DNA from: a virus
Taxonomy: Duplodnaviria > Caudoviricetes
DNA: 39,432 nt
Direction: 5' to 3' (one strand)
Virus record (IMG/VR): IMGVR_UViG_3300043765_000024
Coordinates: 1 to 39,432 of that record
Below the pieces are notes generated by a model, which searched no databases, was not told where the DNA came from, and was given only the letters and a program-made list of their open reading frames with translations. Positions 3,089-36,600 of the stretch are shown piece after piece. A program made the position numbers and the translations under genes. Positions within the stretch are counted from its first letter, which is position 1. Every line of letters begins with the position of its first letter.

Positions 3089-3288
3089 ATATGAAGACCG
3101 GCCATCGCCAGCTGGAGATGATCGCTCTGCTGCGCGCCAACGGGCCGATGACCCGCAAGGAAATCATGGCCGAGATGTATCTGACAAATTTCTGGTCCGT
3201 CATGGACAGCCTGATGCGGCGTGGCCTGATCGCCCACGACAACCACGATCCGCAACGCTACTGGCTGCGTAAAAATGGCGCTGCTTGA
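3085..3288 (+). CDS. Small winged-HTH-like protein
   Basis: LLRANGPMTRKEI...SLMRRGLI...RYWL pattern; ATGA coupling. Confidence 0.6.
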   Translation: MNMKTGHRQLEMIALLRANGPMTRKEIMAEMYLTNFWSVMDSLMRRGLIAHDNHDPQRYWLRKNGAA

Positions 3289-5476
3289 CGACGACACCAC
3301 CCAGCAGCCCAACCCGCTGCTTGGTGCGCTTGCGCCGCCGCAGGGCAATGCGCTCGGCGATCTGTATCGCCGGCTGTTCGGCCCCAGTGACAGCATCAGC
3401 CCGATCTGGCCCACTTCTAACCCGACCGGCACCGAGCGCCTGGTCGACTACCGCGGCTGGGACACCGCGACGCCGCAGGCACCAGCAGATATCAGCCAAA
3501 CCCACGCAGCTCTCGCGCAAGATCCCAATGTCGGCAACATATTGCCGATCAGATACAATGATCAGGGTGTCACTGGGCTCGCAGTTCCCAACATGCTGCG
3601 CGGCGCAGCTCAGGGTGCCTATGACCTGAGCCAAGGCCCAAGATTGGGCGGCATGACGCCGGAAGCGACCATGGCACTCGCCTCCACCGTCGACCCGCTG
3701 GCCCGCTACGATCCCGATACGCTGGCAGCGCTGCGCGTCGCCACCAGAGCCGGCAACATCGCCAGAGTGGAGGCCCGCGGCGCAGGCAACGTCACCTCCG
3801 ATGTCAGCCCAGCTCTGGGACGCGCGATCGGCGGGCTGCTCGACGAGCACCTGGCGCAAGGGGGAATACCGCTCTACGGGGGCCGCGGCACCGAAGGCAC
3901 CGACATTGTCGTGACATTGCCGCCTGGCGTGTCGTCCGCTGCCGAGCTGCAACGGCGGCAGCAGGCGATGGTCGATCGCGCTACCGCCATGACGCAGAAT
4001 GTCGCGCCAGGCACCACGCCGCCACGCTACTGGTATCAGGAGGGAGCTGGCGCGATCCATGCCGCGACCGGCCAAGATCCCGAGGCGAGCCAAAGGCTGG
4101 CCAGCTCGCTCGCCATCACATCGCCGCAGACCGATGTCGCCGGCAACGCCAATGCCGCGGTGAATGCCTGGAACCAGAGCCTGCTCGGCCAGGACATCGC
4201 GGTGAAGATGGCACCGCAGAATAGAGCTCTGGAAGAGACGCTCTACGGCAGTTTCGTCCCCGAGAGCAGAAAAACCGGGCCGTTCGCCGAGAACCACATG
4301 CGCTACATCCAGCCCGAGGTGGGCAACAACCTCACCAACGACATCTGGCAGATGCGCGACGCCGGCTATACCAGTTTCAACCGGGCCGGCGATCCAGTGC
4401 CCTATTCCGGCACGCCCACCGTCGGCGAGGACAACTACGTAAGAATGATGGTCGATCGAGCCACCAGACAGCTCAACGCGACCGGTGTCGACGGCGGCGG
4501 CTGGACACCGGACCAGGTGCAGGCGGCGCTCTGGGTTCACGCCAAGACCACGCAGGAAACCGGCGCGGCATTCCCGGCGAACTTCAATTTCAAGAATGCG
4601 CTGGAGAGATTACAGGCCGGTCAGACGAATGCGCATTTCGGCGGCCCCACACTGGTGCCAGGCGACGCCGCCAGCCAGGCGCAGTTCCACCAGGCGATCC
4701 AGCCGATCATGTCGGACGAGAACGGCAGAGACATCATCAACGCCGGCCTAGGGATGCTGACGCCGCCCAATGTGCCAGGTGGGGCGATGGTGTCGATGAC
4801 CGCCGACGGCATCAAGGACAGCTCGCGCGCGCTGATGGACGCCTCCACCTTGACCCGCGCCATGCTGCTGCGCCAGCCCGACGCGCTCTGGACCTCCCAC
4901 CCAGACGTTGCCGGCCTGCCGTCGATCGCCAATGCCAATGTGGTGCTGTCGCACAGCTCCGATCCCGCCGAGCACGCGCTGCAGCTCAGGATGGCACTCG
5001 ACCATGCAGGCGGCGGCTTGGAAAACTCAGTGCTGCAGCAGGCCCCCGGTGGGGTGCGGATACTGAACGTCAACGAGCGCACCGGGCTTGATAATCGGAC
5101 ATTCCAATCGGGGGTGCGAGACGCTATATCTGGGGCCGGCATTCCAGCCGATTTGAGACGAGCGAGAGCAGATTATGGCTATTTCACCCACGATTGGACC
5201 TCGGACCCCACCGGCTCCAGCTATGTCCGCGCCATCGGCCAGCTCCCCGCCAACCTTCAGCGGGCTAGCGACCAGCTCGTCGCCAACCTTGGAAGCCGCA
5301 TTGATGCGGCAGCATCCCAAGTATCTGGCAGGCCGAGCACACCTGGCCCGTGGGGGCAAGCTGGGTTCGGCCAAGCCGTAACGCCAGCCCAGCTGCCGCT
5401 CCGGCCATGGCAGCAGCGACCATCGCCAGGTGGACCCGGCAGTGTCTTGCCTGGCTTGCTGGGGATCGGACAATGA
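3275..5476 (+). CDS. 733-aa probable virion or ejected protein with a central HhH-GPD glycosylase-like domain
   Basis: Long ORF; motifs WY...SPQ..V.GN, RKTGPF, TNDIW, QVQAALW; Pro/Gly/Gln-rich ends; C-terminal GLLG. Confidence 0.6.
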   Translation: MALLDDDTTQQPNPLLGALAPPQGNALGDLYRRLFGPSDSISPIWPTSNPTGTERLVDYRGWDTATPQAPADISQTHAALAQDPNVGNILPIRYNDQGVTGLAVPNMLRGAAQGAYDLSQGPRLGGMTPEATMALASTVDPLARYDPDTLAALRVATRAGNIARVEARGAGNVTSDVSPALGRAIGGLLDEHLAQGGIPLYGGRGTEGTDIVVTLPPGVSSAAELQRRQQAMVDRATAMTQNVAPGTTPPRYWYQEGAGAIHAATGQDPEASQRLASSLAITSPQTDVAGNANAAVNAWNQSLLGQDIAVKMAPQNRALEETLYGSFVPESRKTGPFAENHMRYIQPEVGNNLTNDIWQMRDAGYTSFNRAGDPVPYSGTPTVGEDNYVRMMVDRATRQLNATGVDGGGWTPDQVQAALWVHAKTTQETGAAFPANFNFKNALERLQAGQTNAHFGGPTLVPGDAASQAQFHQAIQPIMSDENGRDIINAGLGMLTPPNVPGGAMVSMTADGIKDSSRALMDASTLTRAMLLRQPDALWTSHPDVAGLPSIANANVVLSHSSDPAEHALQLRMALDHAGGGLENSVLQQAPGGVRILNVNERTGLDNRTFQSGVRDAISGAGIPADLRRARADYGYFTHDWTSDPTGSSYVRAIGQLPANLQRASDQLVANLGSRIDAAASQVSGRPSTPGPWGQAGFGQAVTPAQLPLRPWQQRPSPGGPGSVLPGLLGIGQ

Positions 5477-9147: not shown

Positions 9148-10204
9148 GACAGCAACCGCACCGGCACCACCGGCAGCATCACCTGCGCCGGCCAGCCAAG
9201 ACAGTATCAGCGTCTCCGAGGCTGCGCGGCTCCTCCGCAGCCGCCGCCAGGGCGATGGCACAGCTCCAGCTGCGCCTGGTGCCCCACCTGCTTCTGTATC
9301 GTCCGATACAGGCAGGGCACCTGCAGGACCTGCGGCACCGCCGAGCGGGCCGACGGCAGCCCAGGCGATGGCGCGGGCGCTGGGGCTGCCCGAGGGGCAA
9401 TCCCGCGAAATAAGCGGACAACTCGCGGAACCTGCGGGCAATCAAATTGCGCCGGCAGACTTCGATCTCGGCGACGGCAGACGCTACAGCGCCAATGAGC
9501 TGCGCGAGGCGATCCGCCAGGCGGCGGACTACACCAAGAAGACGCAGGGCTTGGCCGAGCAGCAGCGCCATGTGCAGGCCCAGCACGCAGCGCTCGCCCA
9601 GGTGCTGCCGTTCATCCAGCCCGAGCTGCAGCGGCTCGCCCAGATCGTGCAGGGCATCCCGATGCCAGACATCAACCTGCTCGACAGCAACCCTAACCAG
9701 TATCACCGGGAATACGCACTCTACCAGCGGGCGATGGCCGAGCAGCAGCGCCTGGCGCAGCTCAACAACGTGCAGTCAGAGGCGCAGGCGCGCGCTCAGG
9801 CGCAGGCACTGGAAGTAGCCAACGCCCAGCTCAGCGCGGAGTTTCCCGCCTGGGGTGATCCGATCCAGCGCAAGGCCTGGCAGACCGAGCTCGCCGACTG
9901 GGCGATCAACAAAGCCGGTTACACCCACGCCGAGCTCAGCAACCTGGTCGACGCCAGACATCTTAGAACCATGATGAAGGCCTACCAATTTGACCTCATG
10001 GTGTCGGGCGCACAGACCCGAGCTCCAGCAGCACCCGCTCAGACCGCCCAGCTCCGCGGCCAGCGCCCGCCGCCGGCACCGGCTGCCTCGGTGCAGCGGG
10101 CCGAGCAGGCTTTCGACGCCAGGCCCAATGTGCGCAACGGTGCAGCTCTGGTCGCGGCACGACGAGCTGCTGCGAACGGCAACGGCTCAGCCGGCAGATG
10201 GTGA
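9140..10204 (+). CDS. Capsid scaffolding protein
   Basis: SD GAGG; disordered N-terminus, RQAADYTKKTQ.LAEQ and GYT.AEL..LVDAR motifs, coiled coil; directly upstream of the capsid gene. Confidence 0.85.
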   Translation: MSETATAPAPPAASPAPASQDSISVSEAARLLRSRRQGDGTAPAAPGAPPASVSSDTGRAPAGPAAPPSGPTAAQAMARALGLPEGQSREISGQLAEPAGNQIAPADFDLGDGRRYSANELREAIRQAADYTKKTQGLAEQQRHVQAQHAALAQVLPFIQPELQRLAQIVQGIPMPDINLLDSNPNQYHREYALYQRAMAEQQRLAQLNNVQSEAQARAQAQALEVANAQLSAEFPAWGDPIQRKAWQTELADWAINKAGYTHAELSNLVDARHLRTMMKAYQFDLMVSGAQTRAPAAPAQTAQLRGQRPPPAPAASVQRAEQAFDARPNVRNGAALVAARRAAANGNGSAGRW

Positions 10205-22264: not shown

Positions 22265-22795
22265 ATGTCGAACGGCGACGATAGCTGGGATATCCCGTCC
22301 TCGACCGGATACAGCGGCGGCTATGTGCCTGCAGATCCTAACGCTGTCGTTGGCAGCCAGGGTTTCTACTCCGGGCTCGGCACTGGGCCGGGACAATTCA
22401 ATCCCGAAACCGCGCCAGGCTGGGGCATGGGACCGGACCCTGCGTTCGGTGGCCCGCAGCCGATCGACGCCGGCACCTGGGACACCGGCAGCTCGGGCAG
22501 CTTTATGAGCCGGCTTGGCGCACTCGGTGGCGCTATTACCGATCTGACCAAAGGGCTCGGCGGCACCGGAGCTGCAGGTCAGACCGCAGCTCGTCCGATG
22601 CAGCTGAACATGGGGAGCCCGATGCCGCCTGGCAGTGCCGGGATCGGACGCCCGAGCTCGCCGCAGCAGCTCGCCATGCTGCTGCAGATGCTGATGCAGA
22701 GACGCAACGCCTATATCGCTGCCGCCAACCCACGAGCTGCGACGCCAGTCACGCAGGGCATGCCGAGCGGCTCGGGTGGCTTGTTGGGGTTATGA
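22265..22795 (+). CDS. Putative internal virion protein
   Basis: Gly/Pro-rich; ends GGLLGL; synteny. Confidence 0.7.
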   Translation: MSNGDDSWDIPSSTGYSGGYVPADPNAVVGSQGFYSGLGTGPGQFNPETAPGWGMGPDPAFGGPQPIDAGTWDTGSSGSFMSRLGALGGAITDLTKGLGGTGAAGQTAARPMQLNMGSPMPPGSAGIGRPSSPQQLAMLLQMLMQRRNAYIAAANPRAATPVTQGMPSGSGGLLGL

Positions 22796-28025: not shown

Positions 28026-28208
28026 TCATATGTCAGGCTCCAGCGCTCGGCGGGCGCGTTCCACCTCGGCCAGCGCCTTGCTGTAGCCGCCGCGCACTTG
28101 GTCGATCAGCCGGCGCAGGTACTCGCCAGGGCTGATGCCGAGCGCCTTGGCCTGGCCAGTGAGCCACTCTTTCTGCTGTGGCGTGGCTTGAAAAGCTATG
28201 CGTTCCAT
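28026..28208 (-). CDS. Ribbon-helix-helix (CopG-like) DNA-binding protein
   Basis: MERIAFQATPQQKEWL...AKALGISPGEYLRRLID fits the RHH pattern. Confidence 0.75.
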   Translation of the reverse strand: MERIAFQATPQQKEWLTGQAKALGISPGEYLRRLIDQVRGGYSKALAEVERARRALEPDI

Positions 28209-28213
28209 GGGCC

Positions 28214-28255
28214 ATATATGTGCCGTTGACGGCACACCGTCAACGCGCCTAGGCT
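28214..28255. promoter_or_regulatory. Overlapping divergent promoters with an inverted-repeat operator
   Basis: CGTTGACGG-CACA-CCGTCAACG (28224..28245) provides a TTGACG -35 on both strands; -10 candidates CATATA (-) and TAGGCT (+). Confidence 0.55.
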
Positions 28256-28261
28256 GCCGGC

Positions 28262-28410
28262 GGGCGCTCGGCCTCATTGAAGCGAATGAAGCTTCATAGC
28301 GTATAGGGGAGCGGCAGCTTCCTTTCCGAGCGTCCACCGATCCGACCAAAGGGGCTCCGTGCTACCAACACGGGGCCAGATACGAAGACGGGCACCGCAG
28401 GGTGCCCGTC
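28262..28410 (+). ncRNA. Candidate small RNA with a 77-nt tRNA-like 5' domain
   Basis: 10-bp closing stem, two internal hairpins and two downstream hairpins; promoter upstream; no convincing ORF. Confidence 0.5.
28387..28410. terminator. Probable bidirectional terminator
   Basis: GACGGGCACC-GCAG-GGTGCCCGTC, a perfect 10-bp stem just past the sprT stop. Confidence 0.65.
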
Positions 28411-28416
28411 CTCATT

Positions 28417-29049
28417 TCAGCCCAGCTCCTCTTCCATGAGCTCTTCGCACTCGTAGCAGGTCAGCCTGACATCCGGCTTGGCCCAGGCGTTCAGCTCGCA
28501 GCTCGGGCAGGTGTATTTCGTCTTGCTGTCGCGTTTCTTCTTGGCCACCGCCTCGTCGCGCCACAGCTCGACATAGCGCAGCGCGAAGCCTGAGCTGACC
28601 AGCTCGGCGCAGGCGCGGGCGAACGGGCCGCCCGCCAGGATGTAGTGGCTCATCTTCTGCCCGACATCCTTGCCGCCTGGCGCGCCGGTATCGCTGGGTT
28701 CCAGGCCGATGTCGCGCATCATCCTGGCCCACTCCTTGTTGTGGTAGCCGGCGCGCGAGGGCTTGCCGAAATGCGCCTGCTGCAGATGCACCATCTCATG
28801 CACCAGGGTGCTGAGACTGTCCTCCACCGTGCGATCGCGGAAATGCGTCGGGTTCATGGCGATTTCGTCGGTCACCTCAACGCCGTCGATGCTGCCGAAC
28901 CGCTTGCCGGCGAAATAGCCGTAGAAGATGCGGGACCGCTGCAGCGTCACCAGGCAGCGCGGCAGCCGGCCCGCGAATAGCTTGACGTTGAAGAAATCAT
29001 ACGCCGAGCAGAACGCGTTGTAGGTGGTGCGGGTGGGATCGGTGTTCAT
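28417..29049 (-). CDS. SprT-like zinc metalloprotease with a C-terminal zinc ribbon
   Basis: FN.KLF.G.LP, STLVHEMVH (HExxH), YHNKEW, CPSC...CYEC; SD GGAGG. Confidence 0.9.
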   Translation of the reverse strand: MNTDPTRTTYNAFCSAYDFFNVKLFAGRLPRCLVTLQRSRIFYGYFAGKRFGSIDGVEVTDEIAMNPTHFRDRTVEDSLSTLVHEMVHLQQAHFGKPSRAGYHNKEWARMMRDIGLEPSDTGAPGGKDVGQKMSHYILAGGPFARACAELVSSGFALRYVELWRDEAVAKKKRDSKTKYTCPSCELNAWAKPDVRLTCYECEELMEEELG

Positions 29050-29084
29050 CAGTGCCTCCTAAAGTGTTTCGGACGATACAGTAA

Positions 29085-29936
29085 TCAGGCAGCCATCGGC
29101 AAGGCGGGAGCCGCCAGCGGCAGCTCCAGCAGCGATGCCTCCCAAGCGGCGTGCTCGACGTGATCCAGCAGCGGGCGCAGCTCCTGGTGGCGAGCCTCGT
29201 CGCCTGAGCTGGCCGCGATCTTGGCCGCGGCGCGAGCTGCGAAGCGGGCGACGTGACCCTCCCCCTCGGCCCGGTAACGGCCATGGTTCATGGCGACGTT
29301 GGTGCTGTCGGTGGTGTCGAAGGGATACAGATGCGCCATCGACTGGGCGCGCATCAGGTGCAGGCGCGGGCGCAGGTTGCCGCTTTCCTTCTCCCACGCT
29401 GCCAGGGCGGCGAACATGAAACCCACGCGGGCATGCCACTCCGGGCTGCCGACGTTCCAATACTTGCCCGAGCTGCCGACGCCGACATAGCCGAACGAGC
29501 TGCAGAGGTAGAGGAAGTATTCAATGCTCTCGTGCATGTGCCAGATCGGCATCGCGCGATCGGTGGGGAGCTGGGTGATGTTCACCAGCTCGGCATTCTC
29601 CTCCACCGTGCCGCCGATCACGTCAGGGATCACGGCAACCGCCTGCGGGCAGCGGTCGAGGATGTCGAGCGCCCACGCCTCGTAGGCGTCGAGGTAGGCC
29701 TCATCGCGGGTGGAGACGCCTTGCTTGAACATGCTGAAAGCGCCGTTGTCGACCAGCAGGATCTGGTCCTCGCCCACCAGGCGGATGGCGTCCTCCAGCT
29801 GGGAGCCCAGCTTCTCCCTGGTCGCGTAGGAGACGCAGAAGCCTGCGCCGGCCAGCTCGTTGAGCAGGGGGCGGGGGTTCAGCGGGAGCCCGTAAACCGC
29901 CTGCTTGGTCATCTCGAAGTGTGTCTCGTTGGTCAT
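29085..29936 (-). CDS. TGT (tRNA-guanine transglycosylase)/DpdA-fold protein
   Basis: LLVDNGAFS, VIPDVIG, PIWH.HE, VGVGSS, RLHLM and YPFDTTDS motifs in TGT-barrel order; SD AAGGAA. Confidence 0.75.
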   Translation of the reverse strand: MTNETHFEMTKQAVYGLPLNPRPLLNELAGAGFCVSYATREKLGSQLEDAIRLVGEDQILLVDNGAFSMFKQGVSTRDEAYLDAYEAWALDILDRCPQAVAVIPDVIGGTVEENAELVNITQLPTDRAMPIWHMHESIEYFLYLCSSFGYVGVGSSGKYWNVGSPEWHARVGFMFAALAAWEKESGNLRPRLHLMRAQSMAHLYPFDTTDSTNVAMNHGRYRAEGEGHVARFAARAAAKIAASSGDEARHQELRPLLDHVEHAAWEASLLELPLAAPALPMAA

Positions 29937-29950
29937 CGTCTCGTTCCTTG

Positions 29951-29994
29951 GTTATGTATCGAACGATACATAACGATTACCCCCGAGATTTCAA
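29951..29994 (-). promoter_or_regulatory. Promoter and 11-bp inverted-repeat operator of the TGT-like/SprT operon
   Basis: TTGAAA -35 on the minus strand; GTTATGTATCG-AA-CGATACATAAC (29951..29974) overlaps the -10 and start site. Confidence 0.6.
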
Positions 29995-30060: not shown

Positions 30061-30699
30061 ATGACTACCGACGAAAGACTACACGAGAAGCGTGACGCTC
30101 GGATCGCCGCCGGAAGGGAGGCATACGAAGGCTTGCGTAAGCACGAGCATTTCCGCAGCTGGCTGGCGATCGCTGACGCACTCGCGGCGATCAGGGAAGA
30201 GGCGATGGAGCTCGCCCATACGAATAGGCCTCAAGGCCCACCGTATCGGGCGGCGCACAAGCGCATCGTCGAGACGCGCGAGCAGTGGGTGACCACGATC
30301 AATTCGGCCACGCAGACGCACTGCTACTGGCTGGTCGACAACCTGCCGGCGATCATGACCTGGCGCGAGGCGCTGACATTCGAGCAGCGCGATCTGTGGA
30401 ACCATCCGAGCACGATCAAGCGGCAGTTCGAGCGGATGACCAAGGCCAAGGAGGAGAAAGACCCGAACGGGCCGAAGCACCTCACGCCGCTGGAGCAGGC
30501 TAACCTCAAGATCGTCGAGCTGCAGGAGGAGAATGACCGGCTCAAGAAGCAGCTGGCCCGCGGCGACGATGGTTCGCTATTCGATCTGAAGAAAGACACC
30601 GGGCGCATGATCGCCCGCGTGATCAGGGCGACGGTGGGCCGGGACAAGCGGCGCGAGATCTCCAAGCTGCTCGCGCCCGACGAGGCGCAGGCCGGCTAG
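30061..30699 (+). CDS. Hypothetical helical protein with a C-terminal coiled coil
   Basis: SD-like AAGGG; coding-like composition; stop overlaps the convergent gene in CTAG. Confidence 0.8.
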   Translation: MTTDERLHEKRDARIAAGREAYEGLRKHEHFRSWLAIADALAAIREEAMELAHTNRPQGPPYRAAHKRIVETREQWVTTINSATQTHCYWLVDNLPAIMTWREALTFEQRDLWNHPSTIKRQFERMTKAKEEKDPNGPKHLTPLEQANLKIVELQEENDRLKKQLARGDDGSLFDLKKDTGRMIARVIRATVGRDKRREISKLLAPDEAQAG

Positions 30700-33104: not shown

Positions 33105-33133
33105 TTGACGGGTGACGATAGGTCACTCACCAT
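33105..33133 (+). promoter_or_regulatory. PR-like promoter with operator
   Basis: TTGACG-N17-CACCAT containing GTGAC-GATAG-GTCAC (33112..33126). Confidence 0.65.
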
Positions 33134-33139
33134 CGTGCG

Positions 33140-33355
33140 ATGAACCGGCATCAGCACCGGATCGTCATCGATCGGTTGGGGGGATACGCCACCGTGGCCA
33201 ATCTGCTGAACGTCGAGCCCGAGACATCGAAAAAATGGCTATATCGGGGCATTCCCAGCAGGCACTGGCATCGCATAGCGGCGCTGCTGCCCGACATCAC
33301 CGCGGAGTATCTGGACCGCACCAGGCCGGCGCGATGCAGGCGGCGGCAACGATGA
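33140..33355 (+). CDS. Cro-like regulator
   Basis: VIDRLGG...VA.LL........KW..RGIPSRHW. Confidence 0.8.
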   Translation: MNRHQHRIVIDRLGGYATVANLLNVEPETSKKWLYRGIPSRHWHRIAALLPDITAEYLDRTRPARCRRRQR

Positions 33356-33738
33356 GCAAGCCACCAGACGCGATGACGCTGGACGCAGTGCGGGCGCTGA
33401 ACGCGTTCGGTCTGTCGGTGGCGCGGATCGCCGAGGCGCTGCAGACCAGCAAGGGCAGGGTGTCTGGCCTAATTCGCCGCCATGTGCAGGGCAAGGCACC
33501 ACCACCGCGACCGAAACGAGAAAGACCGCCCAAACCTGCCAGGCTGCCGAAGCCGAAACCGGCCCCACCACCAAAGCCGACCCTGGTGGCGCATGATCCG
33601 GTGAGCGAGCCACGGGCTGGCGGCTGTCACTGGCCAATGTCGAACGGCAAGCCGTGGATGTTCTGTGGTGCGCAGGCCGAGCCCTGCAGCGTTTACTGCT
33701 ATCGCCATCGCCAGCTCGCATCGGCGCGCGCGTCATGA
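33352..33738 (+). CDS. gcrA: GcrA-like transcriptional regulator
   Basis: N-terminal GLS...IA..L..SK..V.G...R, Pro/Lys linker, C-terminal CHWP....FCG......YC.RH. Confidence 0.8.
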   Translation: MSKPPDAMTLDAVRALNAFGLSVARIAEALQTSKGRVSGLIRRHVQGKAPPPRPKRERPPKPARLPKPKPAPPPKPTLVAHDPVSEPRAGGCHWPMSNGKPWMFCGAQAEPCSVYCYRHRQLASARAS

Positions 33739-34952: not shown

Positions 34953-36029
34953 ATGACGCCGCATATTGCGTGGGCATTCAAGCAACGCAACCTGACACCG
35001 CTGCAGCGGCTGGTGCTGATGGCGATCAGTGAATACGCCAATGGCGATCGGCTCGGTGCGCCGTCGATCAGCACCATTGCCAATGCGATCGAGGCGACGC
35101 GCAAAACCGTGATCGTGGCAGTGCGGTTCCTCAGCGAGGATCGGAAGCTGATCAGCCTGGTGACCGACCCGGCGAAACGGCAGGCATTTTTCAAGCATGT
35201 CGGCATGCCGCTCAACTGCCGCGCGAATGTTTATCGCATCAACCGGCCTGCCGATGGTGTAACTGCTACACCATCCCGAGGTGCCACAAATGGTGTAACC
35301 GCTACACCATCCCGGCGCGCCAATGGTGTAACTGCTACACCATCAGATGGTGTAACCAAGACACCATCTCGCAGGCGGATGGTGAAATTGCTACACCAAG
35401 ATGGTGTAACCAGAACACCAACAGATGGTGTAGCTGCTACACCCGAACCCCTTATTAACCCCTTAATGAACCCCTTAACGCGCGCGACTGCGTCGCACGC
35501 CGGGGCCTCCGCTGCCGCTCCGGCCCCCGAAGCAAGCAAGGAAGATTTTCAAACGGATGAAAAAGGGAAGGAAGCAAGCGGTGCGCCGGCAAAGGCCCCA
35601 GTGATCGGCACAACCAACGGTAGTGCCCCGCCGTCCAATGCGTTCCAGCCGCCAGGTGGACGACGCGACCCTTTCGATCCTGACGCCGGCTCGGTGGTGT
35701 TCCTCGACCGCATGCGGGGCAAGCCGTCCCGGCTCGATGCCCAGCCTGGCGATGTGCTGGTGGCTGATGTGGCGGACGAGGACGACAGCGTCGGCCCCAA
35801 GGCAACCGCGGCGGTGGTGCGCGGGCTCGGACGGCAGATGCGGCATTTCGCCATCCCGCACGGGCCGAAGGATCGTGACCAGCAGATCGCCGAGCTGGAC
35901 ACCAGCGCCATGCCAGGCGTGGCCAAGCCGCAGCAGGCGGTGCGGACACCTGCGGAGCAATACGCGCAGCTCATGGGCTGCTCGGTGGAGGAGGCGATGC
36001 AGCGGATGCCAGCGGTAGCCGATGCTTGA
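34953..36029 (+). CDS. Replication initiator with an N-terminal HTH and an internal origin
   Basis: SD GGAGG; AWAF...L...QRLVL.AI.EYA......PSI.TIA motif; iterons inside the gene as in lambda O. Confidence 0.85.
   Translation: MTPHIAWAFKQRNLTPLQRLVLMAISEYANGDRLGAPSISTIANAIEATRKTVIVAVRFLSEDRKLISLVTDPAKRQAFFKHVGMPLNCRANVYRINRPADGVTATPSRGATNGVTATPSRRANGVTATPSDGVTKTPSRRRMVKLLHQDGVTRTPTDGVAATPEPLINPLMNPLTRATASHAGASAAAPAPEASKEDFQTDEKGKEASGAPAKAPVIGTTNGSAPPSNAFQPPGGRRDPFDPDAGSVVFLDRMRGKPSRLDAQPGDVLVADVADEDDSVGPKATAAVVRGLGRQMRHFAIPHGPKDRDQQIAELDTSAMPGVAKPQQAVRTPAEQYAQLMGCSVEEAMQRMPAVADA
35253..35477. repeat. Putative origin: seven palindromic iterons plus three AACCCCTTA repeats
   Basis: (G/A)ATGGTGT-N7-ACACCATC-like units at 35253, 35289, 35322, 35346, 35378, 35400, 35424; AACCCCTTA at 35446, 35457, 35469. 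Confidence 0.85.
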
Positions 36030-36600
36030 CGCGAAATCGATGGCGGAATTACAACCGGGCAGCCGCGGTGACCCGCAGTCTCCTGCGGTGCGGACGCGTC
36101 GCTGGACCTGCGTGCAGACCCATCCCCAGGCTGAACGCTGGTGCAGCTCGCAGCTCAGTCACCGCGGCTATGTCACGTTCCTGCCGATGATGGCCGTGCT
36201 CAGACGCGACCGGCACACGCCAACCATCGCGCATTCAGTGCTGGTGCCGCTGTTCCCGTGCTACCTGTTCGTCCAGTTCAGCCAAGGTGACCCATGGACA
36301 CCGATCCGATACGCAGATGGCGTGGCTAGGCTGTTCATGGCTGGTAACGGGTTACAGCAGGTCAGCGCGGGCGCTGTGGAGGGGCTACGCGCCTCGGAGG
36401 CGTTTCGGGCTACTCCCATACCAGCGGACGGCTGGAAGGCGCGTGGGGTGGCTTGCAGCCTCGGCGTGGGGCCATTCAAGGGGTTACCCGCGGTGATCAT
36501 GGAGCTGCGGGCTCAGGTAGCTCGCGTGCAGGTGATGTTCCTCGGGGAATTGCGGCAGCTCAGCTGCCATACCGACCAGCTGGTGCCGCGCCATGGCTGA
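36022..36600 (+). CDS. nusG: NusG/RfaH-family transcription antiterminator
   Basis: NGN domain W.CVQT.P..E, PLFP.YLFV, GV.RL; KOW-like GPFKG. Confidence 0.85.
   Translation: MLDAKSMAELQPGSRGDPQSPAVRTRRWTCVQTHPQAERWCSSQLSHRGYVTFLPMMAVLRRDRHTPTIAHSVLVPLFPCYLFVQFSQGDPWTPIRYADGVARLFMAGNGLQQVSAGAVEGLRASEAFRATPIPADGWKARGVACSLGVGPFKGLPAVIMELRAQVARVQVMFLGELRQLSCHTDQLVPRHG

What the first reader, a model, noticed from the sequence alone, without database searches (positions are those of the whole stretch)
28417..29994. Stand-alone TGT/DpdA-fold base-exchange gene in a regulated operon with a SprT protease
Seen: a 283-aa protein with DNGAFS, PDVIG, PIWH, RLH and TTDS motifs. A HExxH SprT-like protease with its own SD follows 35 nt later. 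The pair has one upstream promoter with a perfect 11-bp inverted repeat and ends in a 10-bp hairpin. I recognise no folE/queD/queE/queC anywhere in this apparently complete genome. Known: TGT and DpdA enzymes exchange guanine for 7-deazaguanines (TGT via a covalent Asp-nucleic acid intermediate), and SPRTN/Wss1-type proteases remove DNA-protein crosslinks. Inference: this may be a minimal two-gene nucleic-acid modification module that uses host preQ0/preQ1 or another base, with the protease clearing trapped enzyme or regulating the system. It could also be an abasic-site-making defence system.
Basis: partly seen in the sequence, partly recalled or inferred. Interest (0 to 1): 0.8.

Follow-up and report, generated by a model that had tools for sequence, protein, structure and literature searches.

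The report
DpdA passenger behind an Mpr box
The phage gene belongs to a known group of lone enzymes that likely swap a few guanines in DNA for a host-made 7-deazaguanine and has no conserved tie to the neighbouring protease, but the palindrome in front of both genes recurs before this protease gene (Mpr) on many plasmids and phages and is likely its own binding site.

Summary
The two genes, motifs, 11-bp inverted repeat, hairpin and lack of que genes are real. The 283-aa protein is a 'singleton' phage DpdA (phrog_887; TGT barrel; three catalytic-site Asp and the DpdA His conserved), kin to Salmonella 7-11 and MED16 DpdA, whose phages carry trace dADG. That group was published in 2019. The two-gene module fails: 0 of 73 DpdA clusters have the protease nearby, 0 of 33 DpdA virus records hold it, and 1 of 52 protease records holds any DpdA. 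The protease is an Mpr (43% to R46 mpr), SPRTN-like in fold, on over 2,500 plasmids. The unexpected result is the palindrome: TGTATCGnnCGATACA occurs three times here, once directly before mpr, and variants sit before mpr in 18 of 42 clusters and 13 of 14 further plasmids, never before dpdA elsewhere (0 of 65). Box type tracks one Mpr residue, and Mpr is predicted to dimerise, so Mpr likely binds its own operator; dpdA is a passenger in that unit. I found no paper describing the box.

The parts
29085..29936 (-). Singleton phage DpdA-type guanine transglycosylase, 283 aa (most homologues start at the equivalent of Met9); no CxCxxC zinc site; ends LPMAA
   Evidence: phrog_887 E 7.6e-33; tblastn to MED16 gp38 4e-13 and 7-11 gp32 4e-11; AF2 pLDDT 93, TGT-type barrel; D63, D105, H133, G154 in 120 of 120 and D210 in 119 of 120 homologues
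28417..29049 (-). Mpr-family SprT zinc metalloprotease, 210 aa: HEMVH...H protease domain, basic helix (166-175) and C4 zinc-ribbon-like tail (177-201)
   Evidence: PF10263 E 2e-8; 43% to R46 Mpr, 39% to RA3 Mpr; fold closest to SPRTN 6mdx, Z 10.6; predicted homodimer
29951..29974 (.). Mpr box 1: perfect 11-bp inverted repeat with core TGTATCGAACGATACA (29955-29970), just upstream of the dpdA ribosome site
29065..29080 (.). Mpr box 2, between the dpdA stop and the mpr ribosome site, the position it holds on plasmids
9295..9310 (.). Mpr box 3, in frame inside a low-complexity, unconserved linker of the scaffold gene
   Evidence: no box in 39 related phage records that also lack mpr
29967..29994 (-). 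Candidate promoter TTGAAA-N16-TATGTA overlapped by box 1 (inferred)
   Evidence: read from the sequence; not called by the scan
29073..29102 (-). Candidate internal mpr promoter TTGCCG-N18-TATCGT, its -10 inside box 2 (inferred, 8 of 12 consensus matches)
   Evidence: read from the sequence; below the scan's threshold
29055..29060 (-). Ribosome-binding site AGGAGG of mpr
28387..28410 (-). 10-bp GC hairpin after mpr, likely terminator (weak U tail)
   Evidence: not called

Best explanation
A lone DpdA-type enzyme gene sits in front of an Mpr protease gene, both behind copies of a 16-bp palindrome that recurs before mpr elsewhere; the DpdA likely swaps a small share of phage-DNA guanines for a host-made 7-deazaguanine, and the Mpr dimer likely binds the palindrome and shuts the unit off. 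Shown: the gene identities, the conserved active site, the lack of que genes, the absence of a conserved dpdA-mpr pairing, and the tie of the box to mpr. Inferred steps: (1) on DNA entry no Mpr is present, so the unit would fire briefly, then be repressed as Mpr builds up and binds boxes 1 and 2 through its basic helix and zinc-ribbon tail; (2) DpdA would use Asp210 as nucleophile and Asp63 as acid/base, with host preQ0, giving trace dADG or dPreQ0 as in phages 7-11 and MED16; (3) its conserved C-terminal Ala-Ala would hand it to host ClpXP, so it does not need Mpr for turnover; (4) dpdA entered a passenger slot between box and mpr that holds unrelated small genes in other phages. Odds by step: DpdA acts on DNA with a deazaguanine 0.75; pairing incidental 0.88; box belongs with mpr 0.93; Mpr itself is the binder 0.6.
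For: Family and fold. Active site matches S. Montevideo DpdA D95/F99/D130/H181/G206/L236/D256 (PMC10164549) as D63/F67/D105/H133/G154/M195/D210 by motif order. DpdA-only phages and their dADG: PMC6884629, PMC8306585. No pairing: 0 of 128 DpdA loci (73 clusters, 58 with 800 nt or more downstream) hold Mpr; 0 of 33 whole records (the same query rang); 1 of 52 Mpr records holds DpdA. Box: within -150..+30 of mpr in 13 of 43 clusters (0.49 expected) against 0 of 70 dpdA clusters (Fisher 1e-6); widened consensus before mpr in 13 of 14 further plasmids, control 1 in 17 kb; records picked only for a TA-centred box hold Mpr in 7 of 17 against 0 of 28 for other centres; 39 related phage records lack both mpr and box. 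Passenger genes between box and mpr in L018, L223, L239, L240, L260, L269. Binder: no neighbour gene is shared across mpr loci of different element types; homodimer score 0.73, best control 0.00, a mark reached by 20 of 30 solved pairs and 1 of 23 monomers, runs agreeing in at least 84% of contacts, pLDDT at least 83; residue 176 is K with ATCG-type boxes (19 of 20) and R with ATTG-type boxes (12 of 12), the best of 210 columns, and the IncX3 pair inside the ATTG clade switched both. Ala-Ala end in 101 of 120 DpdA homologues against 11 of 119 Mpr homologues (degron: PMC10862746).
Against: No activity, transcript or binding was measured. The protein is only 29-37% identical to the tested singleton DpdAs, one tested singleton phage (Orion) had no modification, and the fold search ties Cap10, arcTGT, DpdA, TGT and the unrelated PdxJ at Z 14.1-15.1. 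27 of 59 mpr rows show no box. The window's boxes are not TA-centred, and exact boxes with other centres went with Mpr in 0 of 28 records. The widened consensus was fixed after seeing those plasmids; the original pattern finds 7 of 14. The residue-176 match rests on one independent switch, has one exception (L240), column 65 behaves alike (29 of 32), and kin share labels. The host is only inferred (Alphaproteobacteria). A terminal Ala-Ala alone is not sufficient for degradation.
Confidence: 0.5

Rival explanations
1. dpdA is a passenger and the box belongs with mpr, but the box is read by another protein (a small regulator elsewhere on each element, or a host factor), not by Mpr.
For: Mpr has no recognised DNA-binding domain (its C-terminal 55 residues were barely tested by the fold search); TGT-N10-ACA spacing is common among operators (recalled); the window has a small 60-aa ORF and a cI-like gene.
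Against: Different box variants occur in the same host species (Klebsiella pneumoniae L346 and L354) and one variant crosses classes (L354, L357); box type follows the Mpr tree and residue 176; no shared neighbour across element types.
Confidence: 0.27
2. The TGT-fold protein does something other than modify phage DNA: it exchanges or removes bases in host tRNA, binds deazaguanylated proteins as Cap10 does, or leaves abasic sites.
For: Cap10 is the top row of the fold search, tied with the TGTs (10.1101/2025.04.06.647259); measured dADG in singleton phages is only 0.02-0.13% of G and did not block restriction in MED16; a degron-like tail suggests a protein that must be short-lived.
Against: It has the DpdA-type His133; its sequence kin are the 7-11 and MED16 DpdAs; no CD-NTase, QueC or PADLOC match; more distant family members sit beside YhhQ transporters (L015, L308) and clade members near methyltransferase-like genes.
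Confidence: 0.15
3. The first reader's module: the protease is coupled to DpdA and clears enzyme trapped on DNA at the covalent intermediate.
For: Both genes share a box and a hairpin; DpdA is proposed to use a covalent intermediate; Mpr has the SPRTN fold; one other phage (L308) has a DpdA three genes after mpr.
Against: 0 of 73 DpdA clusters and 0 of 33 records carry Mpr; Mpr is on 2,504 plasmids at E 1e-30; L308's DpdA is another clade (36%), lies downstream, has no box before mpr and shows in 1 of 9 loci of its cluster.
Confidence: 0.08

Closest known systems
Singleton ('DpdA only', group 3) phage DpdA: Pantoea phage MED16 gp38, Salmonella phage 7-11 gp32, SEN1 gp38 (PMC6884629, PMC8306585)
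   Same: Same PHROG (887), DNGAFS/PD/WH/H/DS motifs, no que genes in the genome, no CxCxxC site.
   Different: Only 29-37% identical; a separate clade of several hundred metagenomic proteins (466 hits) with HxMR in place of HGLR, an extra C-terminal helix and a conserved Ala-Ala end; untested.
Bacterial DpdA of S. Montevideo (7ui4; PMC10164549)
   Same: Barrel (Z 14.2, rmsd 3.5, 219 aligned) and active-site Asp/His set.
   Different: No zinc site or large insertion 8; no dpdB, dpdC or restriction genes (no PADLOC match for the four proteins scanned).
Mpr 'zinc metalloproteinase' of pKM101/R46 (IncN) and RA3 (IncU)
   Same: 43% and 39% identity; box variant directly upstream in both. Function stated as unassigned (PMC7414963).
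   Different: Shorter (210 aa), in a phage, ATCG-type box, with dpdA as passenger.
SPRTN / Wss1 DNA-protein-crosslink proteases
   Same: Protease domain fold (6mdx Z 10.6, rmsd 3.0, 106 aligned; Wss1 Z 7.8).
   Different: No known sequence-specific operator (recalled); crosslink repair is not shown for any Mpr.
Cap10 of type IV CBASS
   Same: TGT barrel, Z 15.1, rmsd 3.3, 223 aligned.
   Different: 11% identity; Cap10 has Lys where DpdA has His and needs Cap9 and CdnD, absent here.

Membership tests
Singleton phage DpdA | Homology to phage DpdA / TGT-type barrel | tested here: met
Singleton phage DpdA | Three active-site Asp and the DpdA His | tested here: met
   D63, D105, H133 in 120 of 120, D210 in 119 of 120, assigned by motif order
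Singleton phage DpdA | No preQ0 or G+ synthesis genes in the genome | tested here: met
   QueC, FolE, QueD, radical SAM absent; QueC 0 of 32 clade records; QueF and ArcS not searched by profile
Singleton phage DpdA | 7-deazaguanine in phage DNA | not testable with these tools
   needs LC-MS/MS
Bacterial Dpd system (bDpdA) | CxCxxC...H zinc site | tested here: not met
   0 of 120
Bacterial Dpd system (bDpdA) | dpdB/dpdC partners | tested here: inconclusive
   no such match among 43 ORFs scanned or 4 scanned in PADLOC; not searched by dedicated profile
Mpr / SprT-like protease | PF10263 with HExxH and third His; homology to R46 and RA3 Mpr | tested here: met
SPRTN/Wss1 crosslink proteases | Protease fold | tested here: met
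SPRTN/Wss1 crosslink proteases | DNA-activated cleavage of crosslinked proteins | not testable with these tools
   needs biochemistry
Type IV CBASS (Cap10) | CD-NTase and Cap9/QueC partners | tested here: not met
   no QueC; no CD-NTase match among the ORFs scanned

The most novel reading that the evidence does not exclude
Mpr, an SPRTN-like protease carried by thousands of conjugative plasmids (IncN, IncX3, IncU) and many phages, is a sequence-specific DNA-binding dimer: it reads a 16-bp box through its zinc-ribbon tail, represses its own early unit, and uses extra boxes planted in flexible coding regions (scaffold gene here, stbA in R46) to mark its element's DNA, where its protease could be switched on. 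This phage has put a degron-tagged DpdA under that timer.
Probability: 0.45. Interest if true: 0.7.

Novelty: new variant of a known kind. Interest (0 to 1): 0.45.

Why it matters
The DpdA part is ordinary: one more clade of a group whose purpose (trace dADG) is an open question since 2019. The box gives a direct handle on Mpr, a backbone gene of widespread conjugative plasmids with no assigned function: a defined site, a predicted dimer and one residue that tracks the site variant make 'is this SPRTN-like protease also an operator-binding protein?' testable with one gel shift and one reporter.

Tried and rejected
DpdA-SprT module: rejected on neighbourhood and whole-record counts. Pfam, NCBIfam, PADLOC and PDB sequence searches gave nothing for the DpdA; PDB sequence search gave nothing for Mpr. 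Promoter/terminator scan was uninformative. A shared regulator gene beside mpr was sought and not found. The box as this phage lineage's repressor operator: rejected, since 0 of 39 related records have it and none lies near the cI-like gene. A fixed partner for this DpdA clade: none; the commonest neighbours within 2.5 kb are a small HTH (15 of 73) and a PAPS-reductase-like gene (7 of 73). Literature searches for the box sequence and for Mpr function or regulation found no description; an XRE-motif survey had no match in its main text (its supplement not searched). Earlier scan notes on this genome, on Mpr by sequence and on the box by words were empty.

Full report
Setting. The window is a whole 39.4-kb podophage record (SU10-type portal and capsid, terminase, RecT- and Gam-like genes, cI-like repressor) whose ends overlap by about 174 nt with one mismatch. 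The host is likely an alphaproteobacterium: the only two bacterial genomes with this DpdA clade were a Rhizobiales bin and Roseiarcus fermentans, and the closest Mpr proteins lie mostly on alphaproteobacterial plasmids.

Observation. Both ORFs, the motifs, the 35-nt gap, the ribosome site, the 11-bp inverted repeat and the 10-bp hairpin are as described. QueC, FolE, QueD, radical SAM and YhhQ profiles find nothing in the record while controls ring. No promoter is called. The repeat's core, TGTATCGnnCGATACA, has two more copies: between the genes and in the scaffold gene. One exact copy is expected 5e-5 times in this window; the widened consensus gives 3 exact copies against 0 in 200 shuffles.

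The 283-aa protein. It matches phrog_887 (E 7.6e-33), as do MED16 gp38 and 7-11 gp32, and hits 103 of 50,697 phage records, among them MED16 (37.5%), 7-11 (29.4%) and SEN1. The model (pLDDT 93) is a TGT-type barrel: Foldseek ranks archaeal and bacterial TGT first; the wide search ties Cap10 (Z 15.1), arcTGT (14.8), DpdA (14.2), TGT (14.1) and the unrelated PdxJ (14.1), so fold alone does not decide. The residues do: D63, D105, H133 and G154 are in 120 of 120 listed homologues and D210 in 119 (120 of 466 hits were listed), matching by motif order the S. Montevideo DpdA residues, two of which are essential (PMC10164549, passages). The zinc motif is absent in all 120. Hutinet et al. list 76 phages with DpdA and no synthesis genes; 7-11 had 50 dADG per million nucleotides and Orion none (PMC6884629, passages and supplement rows). 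MED16 had 354 per million, without protection from the enzymes tested (PMC8306585, passages). The five DpdA subfamilies are in 10.1101/2023.04.13.536721 (passages; its supplement is closed, so I could not check whether this clade is listed). So 'stand-alone' is already known. New here: 101 of 120 homologues end in Ala-Ala against 11 of 119 Mpr homologues, a feature of ClpXP degrons though not sufficient alone (PMC10862746, passages).

The pairing. Of 128 DpdA loci (73 clusters at 90%, redundancy included in the 128; 58 clusters with 800 nt or more downstream) none holds an Mpr homologue; of 92 Mpr loci (44 clusters) one holds a DpdA. Whole records agree: 0 of 33 (13 at least 90% complete) and 1 of 52. 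The exception, L308, is another clade (36%), three genes downstream, followed by YhhQ, with no box before mpr, in 1 of 9 loci of its cluster. Among 39 related phage records (picked as the longer ones of 85 loci; 22 at least 90% complete) none has mpr or the box and one has a different DpdA. Both genes are mobile accessories that met here.

The protease. It is an Mpr: 43% to R46 and 39% to RA3, with matches in 2,640 plasmid records, 2,201 conjugative, and 8 phage records. Papers name it a putative zinc metalloproteinase of unassigned function (PMC7783346, PMC7414963, PMC3347995, passages). Its fold is closest to SPRTN (Z 10.6, rmsd 3.0, 106 aligned; SPRTN function from the listing of PMC5127644).

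The box. With the original pattern (up to 2 mismatches) it lies within -150..+30 of mpr in 13 of 43 clusters (0.49 expected) and within -400 in 18 of 42, against 0 of 70 and 0 of 65 for dpdA. In 14 further plasmid loci the original pattern finds 7 within -400; the consensus widened afterwards to TGKWTYGNNCRAWMCA finds 13, with 1 background match in 17 kb. Starting from the motif alone (121 viral stretches, half the collection scanned), records with the TA-centred box hold Mpr in 7 of 17, others in 0 of 28 (50 handles given, 4 not held, one not reported separately; Fisher 4e-4). That last result also cuts against me: this window's boxes are not TA-centred. 27 of 59 mpr rows have no box. Unrelated small genes sit between box and mpr in six other loci, once with a second box as here. 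R46 has further boxes inside stbA, as this phage has one in an unconserved scaffold linker.

Who binds it. No gene but mpr is shared across these settings. ATTG-type boxes all fall in one supported clade of the Mpr tree. Residue 176, at the start of the zinc-ribbon tail, is K with 19 of 20 ATCG boxes and R with 12 of 12 ATTG boxes, the best of 210 columns; the IncX3 pair inside the ATTG clade has both K and the ATCG box. This is one independent switch, found after the fact. Mpr is predicted to dimerise (0.73, best control 0.00; mark reached by 20 of 30 solved pairs and 1 of 23 monomers; runs agree in at least 84% of contacts, pLDDT at least 83), which suits a palindrome but does not show binding.

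In print. No paper in the library holds the box sequences and five topic searches found no Mpr regulation. The RA3 copies may be the 'DR1(IR)' and 'DR2(IR)' of PMC4175270, whose role is left open (passages; figure not seen). Older pKM101 and RA3 papers are mostly outside the library, so the novelty claim is limited.

Verdict. The finding as posed is a new member of a known group beside an unrelated neighbour. The Mpr box, and Mpr as its likely reader, is the part worth following. Interest 0.45.

Noticed in passing
window 29088-29102 (-) and homologues P0003-P0121: This DpdA clade ends in Ala-Ala in 101 of 120 proteins, a likely ClpXP degron.
   Followed up: partly
L343:20688-20799 and 22547-22562 (R46): Three Mpr-box copies lie in frame inside stbA and one at the end of the ORF after stbC.
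   Followed up: partly
window 28033-28245 (-): A 60-aa ORF that looks ribbon-helix-helix-like by eye (no family match) has its own 8-bp inverted repeat GTTGACGG/CCGTCAAC just upstream; likely a separate autoregulated gene.
   Followed up: no
window 30061-30699 (+): A 212-aa gene of no known family shares the intergenic region divergently with dpdA; no homologue in 85 loci of related phages.
   Followed up: partly
window 3275-5476 (+): A 733-aa protein between terminase and portal with a weak DUF7178 match (E 4e-4).
   Followed up: no
L313:9204-9935, L316:9149-9991, L312:8011-9303: A PAPS-reductase-like PP-loop gene lies near this DpdA clade in 7 of 73 clusters, twice directly upstream; a candidate partner for making or altering the base.
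   Followed up: partly
L360:8804-9421: A phage found through the RecT-like gene carries another TGT-like gene (DNGAW motif, phrog_15826 'unknown function') downstream of recT.
   Followed up: partly
L111, L112, L124-L126, L169, L203, L222: A CG-centred form, often GTTGTATCGCGCGATACAAC, is repeated several times in some large viral records that lack Mpr; binder unknown.
   Followed up: no
L242, L245, L250, L260, L269, L270, L282: A box-mpr cassette sits between terminase and head genes in a family of lambda-like prophages.
   Followed up: no
window 36022-36600 (+) and 33112-33738 (+): The phage encodes a NusG-type antiterminator and a protein with a weak GcrA-like C-terminus; no integrase was recognised among 43 ORFs scanned.
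   Followed up: no
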